Assembly (NCBI GenBank): GCA_012925625.1
Contig: GCA_012925625.1_3625.1
Reading direction: 5' to 3' (one strand)
Length of the DNA: 32,536 nucleotides
From: a phage
Shown here: piece after piece, positions 3,185 to 11,218 of the stretch
Layout: each line of letters starts with the position of its first letter
How positions within the stretch are numbered: position 1 is the first letter of the stretch
Notes under the pieces: model-generated
Told to the model about the DNA's origin: nothing
Seen by the model: the letters and a program-made list of their open reading frames with translations, nothing else
The model's database searches: none
Made by a program: the position numbers and the translations under genes

Positions 3185-3469
3185 ATGGCTATTGTTACCG
3201 CTGGCGATGTAGTAGAAATGGAAGCAAAATACTTAAAAGCGGGTATGCATATCCTACGCAACGATCTTGAACTGGTCCTGACAATGGTTGACTATAACCC
3301 AGGGCAAGATTATCCAAGTGTTGACTACTTTTTTGAGTATGTTGATGAAGAGTTGAAAGAGGATGAGGCCTATTGCGGTGAGTTCTGCAACTTCTTTTGT
3401 CCTGATGAGGTTGTAAAGGTTATCTATCAACCTGGCGTAGCTTTCCCGCTGCACGCTATCAATAAATAA
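3185..3469 (+). CDS. hypothetical acidic protein (94 aa)
   Basis: ORF with RBS GATAGGAG. Confidence 0.6.
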   Translation: MAIVTAGDVVEMEAKYLKAGMHILRNDLELVLTMVDYNPGQDYPSVDYFFEYVDEELKEDEAYCGEFCNFFCPDEVVKVIYQPGVAFPLHAINK

Positions 3470-3531
3470 ACCTGGCGGGGCCGAAAAGGCCCCCGCCTGA
3501 AATTATGAAAAATAAAAAGAGGCAAACTATC

Positions 3532-3765
3532 ATGATGGAACAAATTAAACGCGCTGAGGCTATTAATGGCAATGTGATCTATTTTGTCAGCAAAAACGAA
3601 AAAGGCGTACCCTATGCGGCGGTAATAGTACAGCCTGACGGAGATTATTGGTGCACTGTGTACGGCGCTTATTCTTTTGGGCGTCCAGTGCATGATAAAA
3701 TTTTGAAAGTAGCGAACCCTACCGGGAAAAATATTACAGCAGAAAAATTTTTTGAAAATAGTTGA
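3532..3765 (+). CDS. hypothetical protein (77 aa)
   Basis: Start at ATGATG 3532 with RBS AAGAGG; the track ORF starts upstream without an RBS. Confidence 0.55.
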   Translation: MMEQIKRAEAINGNVIYFVSKNEKGVPYAAVIVQPDGDYWCTVYGAYSFGRPVHDKILKVANPTGKNITAEKFFENS

Positions 3766-3789
3766 CATGACCATATAAAACTGTAGTAT
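3762..3789 (+). promoter_or_regulatory. sigma70-like promoter TTGACA-N16-TAGTAT
   Basis: Consensus -35 and TAnnnT -10 upstream of the 3841 gene. Confidence 0.45.
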
Positions 3790-3840
3790 ATAAATAAAAG
3801 GGAGCAACAAGCCCCACCAACCACAAAGAGGATAAAAATC

Positions 3841-4020
3841 ATGGCTATTATTGCAAAGACCGAGATCGTAGGCTTAGATTCTATTCTCCTCGCATATGAG
3901 GAAGCTATAGAAATGTATGTGGTTTCCTATGGTGAGTATATCCGTGAATATGAATCTATTGATCTAGCTTTTGAATGTTATATTCGCCAGGTTAATAAAG
4001 CGTACGATGATTATCGTTAA
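3841..4020 (+). CDS. hypothetical protein (59 aa), not in ORF track
   Basis: RBS AAAGAGGATAAAAATC then ATG; uninterrupted 60 codons ending TAA at 4018-4020. Confidence 0.5.
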   Translation: MAIIAKTEIVGLDSILLAYEEAIEMYVVSYGEYIREYESIDLAFECYIRQVNKAYDDYR

Positions 4021-6434: not shown

Positions 6435-6854
6435 ATGAACATTAAATCTAATAATCCGGCATATAGCTTTGATAACGCTTTTTGTCACGGTCCGGCGGCG
6501 AAAGGATTCGAAATCGATGGTAAACTAATTATTGTCAATGTTGACGGGGAAGAGGTTGCAGTATATCCGGTGGCAGACGTTAAAAGCCGTTTGCAATGCC
6601 GCATGGATGTTACCGCCTACCAGCTTGATCCGGTCCGCATAGTTGCCCTGGTCCTGGAGGAAGAGATCAAAGCCATGCATCATAGCAACAAGTTTATCGG
6701 TGACGCGCAAGATAATATGAAGGTATGCCGCTATAAAGTTAATGAAGTGCTTAAAGAATATGGCTTCAAAGATCTGATGATCAAGCGTGATGAAAAATTC
6801 CGTTATCGTAACGACCTGGCAAATCGAATCTATGAAATATACGAATCATTATAA
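6435..6854 (+). CDS. hypothetical protein (139 aa)
   Basis: RBS AAGAGGTAAAAACACC then ATG; last plus-strand gene before the ORF-poor region. Confidence 0.65.
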   Translation: MNIKSNNPAYSFDNAFCHGPAAKGFEIDGKLIIVNVDGEEVAVYPVADVKSRLQCRMDVTAYQLDPVRIVALVLEEEIKAMHHSNKFIGDAQDNMKVCRYKVNEVLKEYGFKDLMIKRDEKFRYRNDLANRIYEIYESL

Positions 6855-6872
6855 TTTCTTAACTAAACTATC

Positions 6873-6900
6873 AGGGGCTTTAAAAGGCCCCTTTCTTTTT
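6873..6900 (+). terminator. intrinsic terminator GGGGCTTT-aa-AAGGCCCC + TTTCTTTTTG
   Basis: 8-bp stem with T-tract; ends the plus-strand transcription unit. Confidence 0.65.
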
Positions 6901-7517
6901 GTCTGTATTTCTCCTACCACAAACGGCCCTACCTGGCAAATGGAATAATTGACGAGCCATCAATCCCACACACTGTACAAATATACATGTAAAATAGCTA
7001 TTGCATAACCTTTCATTGTGTGGTAGCGGTGCTATTTTTTACCCGTTTTCCTTCCAAAGTTGCACGTAATGCAGTTATTGCACAAAATTTAACCTGATGC
7101 ACATCTTCAATACCTTGTCAACAACTAAAAATCTTTATAAGTCATACACTTACATAACCACAAAAGCGTGTTCTACGCGAAAAATCGAGTATAACTATAG
7201 CCGCCAGATCTCAGAATTCACGTACGCACGCCATTCTATAGCCTGCAAAGTATTTATTCCAACCACAGAATAACGGAATAGTCAATACCTGCATAAAATA
7301 ATTATTCGTGTAAACTGCATAACATAAATCAGCTCAGGTGTCAACATTTTTCGTAAACAGTCCGAAATTATCACGATGAGTTATCATAAACAGAGAAATC
7401 TTTAGTCGTCTAATGTTTACTGTACATTACTATACTGACTGGAATCATTAGATGACTAAGAGAAAGATAAGAAATAATTAATAATGTAATTATTTTACCT
7501 GTAACAATAAGGCAACT

Positions 7518-7750
7518 ATGCAAACGAATGGCATGGCGCGACGGAGTCGCGACATAATATAAAAGCAGTAACCATCACCCCCGTGATAGTTTGTCTGCAA
7601 ACTATTAATCAGATCATAGTTGCCTTGTATTTAGTTAATCATGACATAACAAGCAAGGCAACTATAGATCTTCTAATAGTTGCCCTGCTTTTATATTATG
7701 TCATATATTATTATCTTGTTAATTGTTTTCATGCAAACGAATGGCATGGC
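7518..7750. repeat. two copies of a 20-mer direct repeat ATGCAAACGAATGGCATGGC (7518-7537 and 7731-7750) bracketing an inverted-repeat cluster
   Basis: Exact 20/20 identity read directly from the sequence. Confidence 0.7.
7586..7684. repeat. cluster of ATAGTTGCC/GGCAACTAT inverted repeats, with further copies of the 9-mer at 7511-7519 and 7676-7684
   Basis: Palindrome ATAGTTTG-tctg-CAAACTAT (7586-7605); 12-bp inverted repeat ATAGTTGCCTTG (7616-7627) / CAAGGCAACTAT (7654-7665). Confidence 0.65.
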
Positions 7751-7851
7751 TTATCATATCTGCGTGAACAGTCTATGCATAAACAGTGAGATATGGAATA
7801 GTAACAATTGTTATTGTGTGCCAGATAAGTTTTGTCATGAAGTGCTTAAGG

Positions 7852-7879
7852 TGTCAAAAGTGACAATTTTGTCAGACAA
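7852..7879. promoter_or_regulatory. paired TGTCA/TGACA palindromes (TGTCA-aaag-TGACA and TTGTC-a-GACAA), operator-like
   Basis: Two perfect short palindromes 4 nt apart; further TTGTCA copies at 7833 and 7895. Confidence 0.35.
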
Positions 7880-8171
7880 GTTTTTCTCCTCTTTGTCAAG
7901 TGCTGCATGAAAAATTTACAATCTGGTATGGTAGCATTTTTGCGGCCCCGTTTACATTCAGTGATGTATGTATAAGCCTTGTTGTGTGGGCGTTTAGACG
8001 TCTAGACGGTTGGAAGTCCACAGGTCAATATCTAATCTATCGGCTGCTAACTATATCCCACACAAATAGTAAGAAATATAATTGTTATGCGTGTAAACAG
8101 TAACTCATGGTATCAATCCCTGTATGTATCGCCAGTGGTGCGCATAATAGGTATTATGTTAAATTGCCCGT

Positions 8172-8206
8172 AATGATAACTATTCTCACAATGATAGGTA
8201 TTCTCA
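8172..8206. repeat. iteron-like tandem repeat AATGATA(AC/GG)TATTCTCA x2, with related ATAGGTATT copies at 8148 and 8222
   Basis: Two 17-mers with 2 mismatches at an 18-bp period. Confidence 0.55.
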
Positions 8207-8401
8207 TTCACCCCCGCAAGATAGGTTGCAAATGTTGTGCCACTGTGTGAACGGCCTGGCCTATTAATTTGCCTCACTGCCTCGATATTTGAGAATTATT
8301 ATAAGAATGAGAAGTATTCCCATTTCGTCCGCCTGGCAGCACTCCAGTCGCTACCGCTCATGACAGGGCAGAACTGGGTCCATTCAGATATTTCTGGCTG
8401 A

Positions 8402-8634
8402 CTCTTCAGGCCTGTGTGGGAAAAGCCAACCTCTCCGGCGGCGGGGAGGGGTTTGTCAGGAAAATTGCAGGTCAATTAAAAAATTTACGGGGTATATGAA
8501 GCGCTCTTCAGATAAGGCATGTATTATGGGATGAAACCCTCTTCAGGCAATGATATTTGTGGGTGTGATATTTGCTGGAAAGCCAGATATGACGGGACTC
8601 CCGGCGGGGCAGGGGTAGTACAGACAGGGAAAAT
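8402..8634. repeat. duplicated G-rich element: copy A 8402-8464, copy B 8540-8634
   Basis: Both copies run CTTCAGG...GTGGG...AAAGCC...CTCC(C)GGCGG(C)GGGG(C)AGGGG...CAGG(G)AAAAT in the same order. Confidence 0.55.
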
Positions 8635-9312
8635 ATGGAGGATGTGGTTGGGTAAATTGATCAGGCAGGTAGAGTATGGAATATGTTACAGGTATGTTAA
8701 ATAGGGAGGCTGAATATCTGTAGGATTTGTGTGTAAAATCAAAGACTTAAGTGGTGTTGTGGTATTTTCTATAAATAATTCAAGTTTAATAGGTAATATT
8801 TGTCTCTATCCGCTTTGTGTGGTAAACAAATTCAGATGGTGTTGGTTTACAAGTGTATACATAATATACAAATTAAAGATACAAGAAACCCCCCCTCCCC
8901 CTTCGGCTACCATTCACCTTTTCCTCTGACTGGTACTTAAACACTTATTCAGACTCTTCAGGTTATCACCCATATATCATATGGCAGTGACTGGTGTCCT
9001 CCGGCCCCTCTTTCGTCACCCGTCCGCTTCGCCATGCTAATGCCATAGCCAATGGTTCGGTTGTTCACCCTGTTCACTCAGGTGTATCTCCATACCCCTT
9101 CAAACCGAAGAGAACAGAAAACCCGAATTACTCGGTAAAAGAAAAGAGAAGAACTTAATTTTATCAGGATAGGCAAGAATGTCAAGGCATGACTGCTCAC
9201 TAAACAAGCAAACAGTCATGTGTGGGAGGTAAGTGATTGTGGTGGTGGGAAATTTAGTTGAAAGATGTGTTATAGGTGCTTCCAGCACTTTAGCCGGGCA
9301 GCTAATTGTGTG

Positions 9313-9528
9313 TCAGTCCAGCGGTTCATCCTCTACTTCACTGAAATCAATGTTCATGGTCTCTTCCCAACCATCGATCTCAGCACAAGAGTGGAGTTCT
9401 TTAGGGTTTACTCCCAAAGCCTCAGCAACAGAGTCTATATTTAACACCTCTGGCAGGTATGTTTCATCGAATTCAAGGTAAATCAGGCCACGAGTGTTGT
9501 CAGCTCCACCAAATATTTCTATCTTCAT
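9313..9528 (-). CDS. hypothetical acidic protein (71 aa), last gene of the minus-strand unit
   Basis: ORF with RBS GAGGAG upstream of ATG at 9528. Confidence 0.55.
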   Translation of the reverse strand: MKIEIFGGADNTRGLIYLEFDETYLPEVLNIDSVAEALGVNPKELHSCAEIDGWEETMNIDFSEVEDEPLD

Positions 9529-10912: not shown

Positions 10913-11218
10913 TTATTCTACAGAGCGTTTGAACAGAATGTCTGCCTCTGACATGTGCTCAACCTCTTCTTCGATTTTAGCTCGACGTTTTTCAGCCTCA
11001 TATCGAATATCGAACTCGGTAGCCACCAGAGATTTGATGAATTTAGGAGAATACAGATGATCCTGCTTCTCAACAAGAATGATATCCTTGATGGCATCTT
11101 TCAGATCTTTAATCTGAAGTTGGAGTTCCACCAGTTCTTCGATTGTTTTGCGAAGGCGATCACGCTCTGCAGTGTCAGAAGGAAGAGAGGTGAACAGTTC
11201 AACTTTAGATTTAGCCAT
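10913..11218 (-). CDS. hypothetical coiled-coil protein (101 aa)
   Basis: RBS AAGGAG upstream; charged heptad-like sequence. Confidence 0.6.
   Translation of the reverse strand: MAKSKVELFTSLPSDTAERDRLRKTIEELVELQLQIKDLKDAIKDIILVEKQDHLYSPKFIKSLVATEFDIRYEAEKRRAKIEEEVEHMSEADILFKRSVE

What the first reader, a model, noticed from the sequence alone, without database searches (positions are those of the whole stretch)
6901..9312. 2.4 kb ORF-poor region at the convergence of the two transcription units
Plus-strand genes end at a strong terminator (6873-6900) and minus-strand genes end at 9313, so this is a tail-to-tail gap of about 2.4 kb with no ORF that has a credible RBS or codon pattern. That is unusually large for a tightly packed phage genome. 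The region is dense in repeats and short palindromes (detailed below) and includes GC-rich blocks, making it a candidate replication origin, packaging or recombination site, or a structured ncRNA locus.
Basis: seen in the sequence. Interest (0 to 1): 0.7.

Follow-up and report, generated by a model that had tools for sequence, protein, structure and literature searches.

The report
Phage chromosome ends, joined by assembly
The 2.4 kb gene-free gap is where the two physical ends of this rV5-like coliphage's linear chromosome meet in the assembled sequence: it holds the 459-bp direct terminal repeat plus about 1 kb of conserved non-coding DNA on each side, a feature already reported for this phage genus.

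Summary
Window 6901-9312 is non-coding: no ORF exceeds 76 aa, substitutions across 16 relatives show no codon periodicity (flanking genes do), and there are no Pfam, PHROG, tRNA or Rfam hits.

The window is a Vequintavirus (rV5-like myovirus). The rV5 genome paper (2013) already drew this gap as a "non-coding" box.

The gap is the junction of the chromosome ends.
- The published 459-bp terminal repeat of phage Gotham maps without gaps to window 7875-8333.
- Phage YN3 carries an identical 458-bp repeat at both record ends with the same boundaries.
- Other records start or end exactly at 7875 or 8333.
- The repeat is a conserved block flanked by hypervariable indel zones.

Flanking elements:
- a compound palindrome (7538-7702);
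- a variable array of 15-16-bp repeats abutting the repeat's left edge;
- a near-invariant 255-nt block (8897-9151), adjoined by a consensus sigma-70 promoter-like site.

Klebsiella phage KPP-1 and Salmonella phage PVP-SE1 have the same convergent ORF-free gap. KPP-1's repeat was shown by read coverage. Their palindrome shows compensatory base changes.

A structured ncRNA is not supported, and an origin could not be tested. Already known; low to moderate interest.

The parts
6873..6900 (+). Intrinsic terminator that ends the plus-strand transcription unit
   Evidence: stem 6873-6892, 8 pairs (5 GC), 4-nt loop, followed by TTCTTTTTGT.
6901..7517 (.). Unique non-coding DNA of one chromosome arm. 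AT-rich (34% GC over 7001-7500), 90-98% conserved, function unknown
   Evidence: Composition; conservation; no codon periodicity.
7518..7537 (+). Left copy of an exact 20-nt direct repeat, ATGCAAACGAATGGCATGGC, that brackets the palindrome
   Evidence: family D3. Phage FV3 lacks everything between the two copies.
7538..7702 (.). Compound palindrome: a small hairpin (7538-7550), an 18-bp perfect outer stem (7551-7568 with 7685-7702), and inner AAGGCAACTAT/ATAGTTGCC stems
   Evidence: DNA fold z = -7.3; alignment-fold z down to -11 on both strands, minus strand more stable. Present in 116 of about 120 Vequintavirus records. An analogous element in sister genera shows compensatory base changes.
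7731..7750 (+). Right copy of the 20-nt direct repeat
   Evidence: family D3.
7706..7869 (+). Hypervariable indel zone holding an array of short repeats, period 15-16 bp, core GTRAAC(A/T)(A/G)T. The window has one pattern match (7764-7772); 7779-7787 is a near copy (ATAAACAGT). Relatives have up to 8
   Evidence: All copies lie on the plus strand, at -200 to -48 from the left edge of the repeat.
7869..7879 (.). Palindrome TTGTC-A-GACAA at the left boundary of the terminal repeat. Conservation resumes here, and the repeat starts at 7875, just after the centre base
7875..8333 (.). Direct terminal repeat (459 bp), present once in this collapsed assembly. It contains a conserved promoter-like site (7893-7922, plus strand), a palindrome (7985-8022), a core shared with PVP-SE1 (8135-8164) and an 18-bp tandem repeat (8172-8206)
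   Evidence: The Gotham repeat maps 459/459 without gaps at 94.6% identity. YN3 has an identical 458-bp repeat at both record ends with the same boundaries. Other records start or end at 7875 or 8333. Published in PMC7471380. Internal features.
8346..8395 (.). Second variable indel zone, starting 13 bp beyond the right boundary of the repeat
8552..8574 (+). GATATTTG doublet (8552 and 8567), with a third copy at 8284 inside the repeat. A similar TGATATTTT cluster sits at the equivalent repeat edge in KPP-1
   Evidence: weak: nhmmer E = 0.52.
8897..9151 (.). Near-invariant non-coding block, specific to the genus
   Evidence: 14 variable columns in 255 nt among 19 genomes, with no codon-position bias. 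A 326-nt query over it is at least 99% identical in 100 of 119 records. No fold signal. No homologue found in KPP-1 or PVP-SE1.
9158..9185 (-). Sigma-70 promoter-like site, TTGACA-16 nt-TG-n-TAAAAT (11 of 12 matches), pointing towards the terminal repeat. Both hexamers are invariant in 19 genomes
   Evidence: No transcription data exist.
9189..9221 (-). Conserved hairpin CATGACTG...CAGTCATG, downstream of the last minus-strand gene and next to the -35 hexamer
   Evidence: (z = -3.3 to -3.6 on the minus strand).
9313..9528 (-). Last gene (71 aa) of the minus-strand unit, which marks the right edge of the gap

Best explanation
The gap is the terminal region of the linear Vequintavirus chromosome, seen as a concatemer junction because the assembly collapsed the two ends. 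Virion DNA starts and ends with the same 459-bp direct terminal repeat (window 7875-8333).

In window orientation:
- One end reads ...genes, terminator, 6901-7874, repeat.
- The other end reads repeat, 8334-9312, then the 3' ends of the minus-strand genes.

Proposed mechanism, inferred by analogy with T7-type phages. Replication yields head-to-tail concatemers with one repeat copy per junction. Terminase recognises fixed sites, cuts at the two repeat boundaries (7874/7875 and 8333/8334) on opposite strands, and the repeat is duplicated by DNA synthesis so that each packaged genome carries a copy at both ends.

The flanking non-coding elements are the likely cis-acting signals for this process, or for protection and early events at the ends after injection. 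They are the compound palindrome, the variable array of 15-16-bp repeats abutting the left boundary, the GATATTTG sites near the right boundary, and the near-invariant block with its promoter-like site.

Shown here: the region is non-coding; the repeat's position and boundaries are inferred from homology to relatives; the conservation pattern; the same architecture in two sister genera. Inferred: the cutting and duplication mechanism, and the role of each flanking element.
For: - Gotham's record carries identical 459-bp repeats at both ends. They map without gaps to window 8333..7875 at 94.6% identity.
- YN3 independently has an identical 458-bp repeat at both record ends with the same boundaries. 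Pr121LW starts at 7875.
- The four bov phage records start at 8333, ECP2309 ends at 7875 and EcoIv14a_Aya starts at 7875.
- Conservation marks both boundaries: a conserved repeat flanked by hypervariable indel zones at 7706-7869 and 8346-8395.
- KPP-1 (genus Mydovirus) has a 514-bp repeat shown by twofold read coverage and PhageTerm, T7 type (PMC9862379). It sits in a convergent ORF-poor gap of about 1.8 kb.
- PVP-SE1 (genus Seunavirus) has a 2,268-bp convergent gap without annotated genes. That gap is homologous to KPP-1's at 73-80% identity.
- The Vequintavirus profile matches the PVP-SE1 gap at the part that aligns with KPP-1's repeat (E = 1.8e-5).
- A compound palindrome lies beside the repeat, on the same side, in all three genera.
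- In the sister genera, 11 of 65 base pairs show compensatory changes against 4.6 +/- 1.3 in shuffles (0 of 500), and 0-1 in slid controls.
- The region is non-coding by every test.
Against: - The window holds one copy of the repeat and no reads, so terminal redundancy of this particular phage is inferred from homology only.
- The rV5 paper calls the genome circularly permuted.
- Two papers report PhageTerm calls of permuted or headful packaging for Vequintavirus isolates.
- FV3 lacks the palindrome entirely. Either it is dispensable or that assembly collapsed it.
- No terminase-binding or cleavage data exist for this subfamily.
- The palindromes at the two boundaries are short (5+5 and 3+3 bp).
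- The strongest promoter-like site points towards the chromosome end, unlike the early promoters of T7.
Confidence: 0.8

Rival explanations
1. Replication origin. The palindrome with its iteron-like GGCAACTAT repeats, next to the 34% GC block at 7000-7500, would be where replication starts. This could coexist with the terminal-repeat role.
For: - Four inverted GGCAACTAT copies and a 20-nt direct repeat cluster at 7500-7750.
- An AT-rich block lies alongside.
- The cumulative GC skew peaks near the region.
- The palindrome is conserved in 116 of about 120 records.
Against: - The skew turn coincides exactly with the switch in gene orientation. The rV5 authors drew the same conclusion.
- FV3 lacks the palindrome.
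- No initiator-binding data exist.
- The sister-genus palindrome is selected for intrastrand pairing, not for repeated binding sites.
Confidence: 0.12
2. Non-coding RNA locus. The near-invariant block 8897-9151 would be transcribed leftwards from the promoter-like site at 9185-9158 to give an RNA of about 260 nt, or the palindrome would act as an RNA structure. This could coexist with the terminal-repeat role.
For: - The promoter-like site matches 11 of 12 consensus positions with an extended -10, and both hexamers are invariant.
- The block is more conserved than the neighbouring genes and has no coding signature.
- The palindrome folds better on one strand: 25 G.T pairs against 0 A.C, and 5-15 kcal/mol more stable in all 7 genomes. 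The same direction of bias is seen in the window.
Against: - No Rfam match.
- Fold z-scores of the block are -0.8 and -0.1.
- No clear terminator at its far end.
- No homologue of the block in sister genera.
- No transcriptome for this genus was found.
- The strand bias fits single-stranded DNA equally well.
Confidence: 0.15
3. Headful packaging from a pac site. The genome would be circularly permuted, the region would hold only the pac site, and the shared record ends would reflect a preferred first cut.
For: - rV5 is described as circularly permuted.
- PhageTerm called 'circular permutated' or headful packaging for some isolates.
Against: - Two independent records have exact 458/459-bp repeats at both ends with identical boundaries.
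- Gotham's authors report one specific start for all virions.
- KPP-1 shows twofold coverage confined to 514 bp.
- Both boundaries, not just one, recur among records.
Confidence: 0.08
4. Overlooked small protein genes. Some annotators to 14 ORFs in this region.
For: - PMBT16, Mangalyan and MiataMamis annotate many small genes here.
- ORFs 7410-7523 (minus strand), 8107-8250 (plus), 8958-9077 (minus) and 8994-9158 (plus) are intact in 16-18 of 18 relatives.
Against: - Those intact ORFs lie in stretches with almost no variation, so being intact says little.
- Their few variable sites show no third-position excess.
- All other ORFs are broken in relatives.
- No significant protein-family hits.
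- Curated annotations (BASEL collection, rV5) call nothing here.
Confidence: 0.04

Closest known systems
rV5 'non-coding' box and the Gotham 459-bp terminal repeats (genus Vequintavirus)
   Same: It is the same locus. It is homologous at 87-96% identity in 122 records. The rV5 genome map labels it 'non-coding ... contained no ORFs' between genes 163 and 164 (PMC3606486). Gotham's terminal repeat maps to 7875-8333.
   Different: The papers I read do not connect the two facts and do not describe the internal anatomy: palindrome, short-repeat array and near-invariant block. The window's phage is not identical to any full record; the best full-length match is 94.6%.
T7/T3 concatemer junction (Autographiviridae, short direct terminal repeats)
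   Same: - Short exact terminal repeat with fixed ends; PhageTerm classed KPP-1 as T7 type.
- About 1 kb of non-coding DNA on either side of the repeat.
- Arrays of short repeats flanking the repeat (T7's SRL and SRR arrays; from my own knowledge of Dunn and Studier 1983).
- A hairpin-forming inverted repeat beside the repeat, implicated as a processing intermediate (Chung and Hinkle 1990, as cited in PMC4281155).
   Different: - Myovirus of about 137 kb with no sequence similarity to T7.
- The flanking genes converge on the termini, instead of all reading away from one end.
- The strongest promoter-like site points towards the end.
- No phage RNA polymerase pause site is known here.
- None of the T7 pac elements was tested.
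Terminal regions of sister genera Mydovirus (KPP-1) and Seunavirus (PVP-SE1)
   Same: - Convergent ORF-free gap of 1.8-2.3 kb.
- The repeat lies inside the gap, shown by coverage for KPP-1.
- A compound palindrome lies a few hundred bp from the repeat edge, on the same side.
- Weak collinear sequence matches inside the repeat.
   Different: - Sequences are largely unalignable with Vequintavirus.
- The arm equivalent to 8334-9312 is only 335 bp in KPP-1.
- The near-invariant block has no detectable counterpart.

Membership tests
Terminal region of a phage with short direct terminal repeats (T7-type packaging) | The same sequence is present at both physical ends of virion DNA | not testable with these tools
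   The window holds one collapsed copy and no reads. In relatives the feature is met: Gotham 459 bp and YN3 458 bp are identical at both record ends.
Terminal region of a phage with short direct terminal repeats (T7-type packaging) | The window sequence is homologous to an experimentally defined terminal repeat, with the same boundaries | tested here: met
   459/459 without gaps at 94.6% identity, at window 7875-8333. The same boundaries recur in YN3, Pr121LW, the bov phages, ECP2309 and EcoIv14a_Aya.
Terminal region of a phage with short direct terminal repeats (T7-type packaging) | Fixed termini: read-start pile-ups and twofold coverage confined to the repeat | not testable with these tools
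   Reported for Gotham and KPP-1. Contradicted by PhageTerm calls in two other papers.
Terminal region of a phage with short direct terminal repeats (T7-type packaging) | Terminase large subunit of the clade that packages short terminal repeats | not tested
   The terminase gene is not in the window and was not fetched.
Structured non-coding RNA of a described family (Rfam) | Match to a covariance model at or near the family's gathering score | tested here: not met
   No matches at gathering score in the whole window. Only two weak chance-level matches at E up to 5. No tRNA or tmRNA.
Protein-coding genes | ORF conserved in relatives, codon periodicity of substitutions, or a family match | tested here: not met
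Replication origin | Copy-number peak or autonomous replication; initiator-binding repeats beside an easily unwound AT-rich element | tested here: inconclusive
   Repeats and an AT-rich block exist. The GC-skew turn is confounded with the switch in transcription direction.
Headful (pac) packaging with circular permutation | One preferred cut site with variable downstream ends, and no exact repeat of fixed length | tested here: not met
   Two independent records have exact repeats of 458/459 bp with identical boundaries. Both boundaries recur among records.

The most novel reading that the evidence does not exclude
The compound palindrome beside the terminal repeat would be a conserved folded element that acts on one strand. 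That would make it the first cis-acting structure defined for repeat duplication or packaging in a myovirus with direct terminal repeats.

- It is kept across at least three Vequintavirinae genera.
- In the sister genera its base pairs show compensatory changes.
- It folds consistently better on one strand.
- It could act as a single-stranded DNA hairpin intermediate or as an RNA.

Separately, the near-invariant 255-nt block with its consensus promoter-like site could be a genus-specific regulatory RNA or an end-proximal control element.
Probability: 0.25. Interest if true: 0.5.

Novelty: already known. Interest (0 to 1): 0.27.

Why it matters
- **Annotation.** Many of the 122 public Vequintavirus records are opened at arbitrary points. 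Several fill this region with 2-14 spurious small genes. Placing the true termini at 7875 and 8333 fixes both problems.
- **Engineering.** Rebooting or packaging synthetic rV5-like therapeutic phages needs the terminal repeat and probably its flanking signals.
- **Biology.** The conserved palindrome, the short-repeat array and the near-invariant block are concrete, testable candidates for terminase recognition and end processing. No cis-acting packaging signal has been defined in this subfamily.

Tried and rejected
- **Known RNAs.** Rfam at gathering score and at permissive E-value, and ARAGORN, found nothing.
- **RNA structure in the near-invariant block.** Single-sequence folds of both strands gave z = -0.8 and -0.1.
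- **RNA structure across the gap.** An alignment-fold scan found only the palindrome, on both strands, plus one hairpin at 9189-9221.
- **Protein families.** Pfam and PHROGs on the ten longest ORFs gave no significant hits.
- **Host origin.** The whole region has no match in 5,426 complete E. coli genomes.
- **IMG/VR search with the 71-aa flanking protein.** Only 3 loci came back, too few to widen the comparison.
- **TCCCACACA motif.** This 9-mer occurs four times in the gap and nowhere else in the window. I set it aside because the copy at 6964 is not conserved.
- **Fur-box resemblance of the 18-bp tandem repeat in the terminal repeat.** At chance level in the window: 6 sites at 14/19 or better against 0-7 in shuffles.
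- **GTRAACWRT as a window-wide motif.** 4 matches against 2.8 expected. It is meaningful only as the local array seen in relatives.
- **Transcriptome literature for the genus.** None found.
Full report
**1. What the window is**

The region matches 122 phage records at 87-96% nucleotide identity. All are Vequintavirus (rV5-like myoviruses of about 137 kb), and most annotate nothing here. The rV5 genome paper of 2013 already drew a grey box labelled "non-coding" that "contained no ORFs" between genes 163 and 164. It attributed the local GC-skew change to the switch in transcription direction (PMC3606486).

**2.

- The plus-strand unit ends at a good intrinsic terminator at 6873-6892.
- The minus-strand unit ends with a 71-aa gene at 9313-9528.
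- In a 16-genome alignment the flanking genes show strong three-base periodicity of variable sites, with 0.65-0.81 of them in one phase. Every 150-nt window from 6825 to 9300 gives 0.36-0.48.
- Outside one near-invariant block, every ORF of 50 aa or more is interrupted in at least half of the 18 relatives, and most in nearly all.
- The ten longest ORFs have no significant Pfam or PHROG match.
- There is no tRNA and no Rfam family.
- In the curated relative MaxTheCat the gap is 2,532 bp, while no other intergenic gap in about 30 kb exceeds roughly 210 bp.

**3. What it is**

Several records begin or end inside the region at two recurring points.

- Phage Gotham's record annotates identical 459-bp repeats at both ends. 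They map without gaps at 94.6% identity to window 8333..7875.
- Phage YN3, from another laboratory, has an identical 458-bp repeat at both record ends with the same boundaries. Pr121LW starts exactly at 7875.
- The four bov phage records start at 8333, ECP2309 ends at 7875 and EcoIv14a_Aya starts at 7875.

The gap is therefore the junction of the physical chromosome ends:

| Window coordinates | Content |
|---|---|
| 6901-7874 | unique non-coding DNA, 974 bp |
| 7875-8333 | direct terminal repeat, 459 bp |
| 8334-9312 | unique non-coding DNA, 979 bp |

**4. Conservation marks the repeat independently**

In a 19-genome alignment the repeat is a conserved block. A hypervariable indel zone at 7706-7869 ends at the palindrome TTGTC-A-GACAA, and the repeat begins just after its centre base. 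A second indel zone begins 13 bp beyond the right boundary, which reads GCC|TGGC.

**5. Flanking anatomy**

- **Compound palindrome, 7538-7702.** It has an 18-bp perfect outer stem and inner AAGGCAACTAT/ATAGTTGCC stems.
  - DNA fold z = -7.3. Alignment-fold z reaches -11 on both strands.
  - Its outer stem is the only perfect long inverted repeat in the window.
  - It is bracketed by an exact 20-nt direct repeat.
  - It is present in 116 of about 120 records. FV3 lacks everything between the direct repeats.
- **Short-repeat array abutting the left boundary.** Period 15-16 bp, core GTRAAC(A/T)(A/G)T, all on one strand. The window has one pattern match plus a near copy, and rV5 has 8.
- **GATATTTG sites** near the right boundary, with a similar cluster at the equivalent edge in KPP-1.
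- **Near-invariant block, 8897-9151.**
  - 14 variable columns among 19 genomes, with no codon bias.
  - A 326-nt query over it is at least 99% identical in 100 of 119 records.
  - It adjoins a consensus-like sigma-70 promoter-like site on the minus strand (9185-9158, 11 of 12 matches, extended -10, invariant hexamers).
  - Neither strand of the block folds better than shuffled sequence.

**6. The architecture is shared across the subfamily**

- Klebsiella phage KPP-1 (Mydovirus) has a 514-bp repeat shown by twofold coverage and PhageTerm, T7 type (PMC9862379). It lies in a convergent ORF-poor gap of about 1.8 kb.
- KPP-1 has a compound palindrome about 309 bp from the repeat edge (21-bp perfect outer stem, z = -10.7).
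- Salmonella phage PVP-SE1 (Seunavirus) has a 2,268-bp convergent gap without annotated genes. It is 73-80% identical to KPP-1's gap, and the Vequintavirus profile matches it at the part that aligns with KPP-1's repeat (E = 1.8e-5).
- The KPP-1-type palindrome occurs in 69 records of several genera.
- On a seven-genome alignment, 98.2% of cells pair. Eleven of 65 pairs show compensatory changes against 4.6 +/- 1.3 in shuffles (0 of 500), and 0-1 in slid controls.
- The strand equivalent to the window's minus strand folds 5-15 kcal/mol better in all seven, with 25 G.T pairs against 0 A.C. The window's own scan shows the same bias.

**7. Mechanism**

This part is inferred. As in T7-type phages, concatemers would carry one repeat per junction. 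Terminase would cut at the two boundaries on opposite strands, and DNA synthesis would duplicate the repeat. T7 also has short-repeat arrays flanking its repeat (my own knowledge of Dunn and Studier 1983). A hairpin intermediate is reported for T7 (Chung and Hinkle 1990, as cited in PMC4281155), which makes the palindrome a candidate for that role.

Points against:
- FV3 lacks the palindrome.
- rV5 was called circularly permuted.
- Two papers report headful or permuted PhageTerm calls.

**8. Verdict**

The feature is already known for the genus. The internal cis-element anatomy and its cross-genus conservation are modest additions.

Noticed in passing
L020 (phage I29), about 3386-3950; equivalent to window 8117-8678: I29 carries a tandem duplication of about 560 bp that spans the right boundary of the terminal repeat. 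It does not coincide with the repeat itself. It could be a real duplication or a misassembly at the chromosome ends.
   Followed up: partly
Records MG0656xx, matching window 6901-9312: Nineteen records named 'Campylobacter phage', with host given as C. jejuni, are about 88-94% identical to this coliphage region. They also encode the identical 101-aa neighbouring protein. They look like Vequintavirus coliphages that were mislabelled or were contaminants.
   Followed up: no
Window 6435-6854 (plus strand, 139 aa): The last plus-strand gene before the gap is present in some relatives (MaxTheCat, rV5, YP-6, WalterGehring). It is absent in others (pangalan, PMBT16, FV3, APCEc02, Alma, WM). It is an accessory gene next to the terminus.
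   Followed up: partly
L013 (phage FV3), equivalent to window 7538-7750: FV3 lacks the palindrome and one copy of the 20-nt direct repeat, exactly as expected from recombination between the repeats. An assembly collapse of a hairpin-forming region would look the same.
   Followed up: partly
L006 4795-4819 and L027 34309-34333: One arm of the sister-genus palindrome contains a site matching the E. coli Fur-box consensus at 16 of 19 positions. The weaker resemblance in the window's 18-bp tandem repeat (8169-8187, 14 of 19) is at chance level.
   Followed up: partly
Window 9215-9290 (minus strand): No canonical intrinsic terminator follows the last minus-strand gene. Instead the transcript would be C-rich and G-poor (like a Rho-loading site), followed by the hairpin at 9189-9221.
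   Followed up: no
Window 6964, 8056 (plus strand); 8413, 9219 (minus strand): The 9-mer TCCCACACA occurs four times in the gap, in a roughly symmetric arrangement, and nowhere else in the 32.5 kb window. The copy at 6964 varies among relatives.
   Followed up: partly
Window 10913-11218 (minus strand, 101 aa): This neighbouring protein is at least 99% identical in 115 records and has homologues across Vequintavirinae, some annotated as a transcriptional regulator or dsDNA-binding protein. In KPP-1 it lies 36 kb from the terminal repeat, so gene order next to the termini is not conserved between genera.
   Followed up: no
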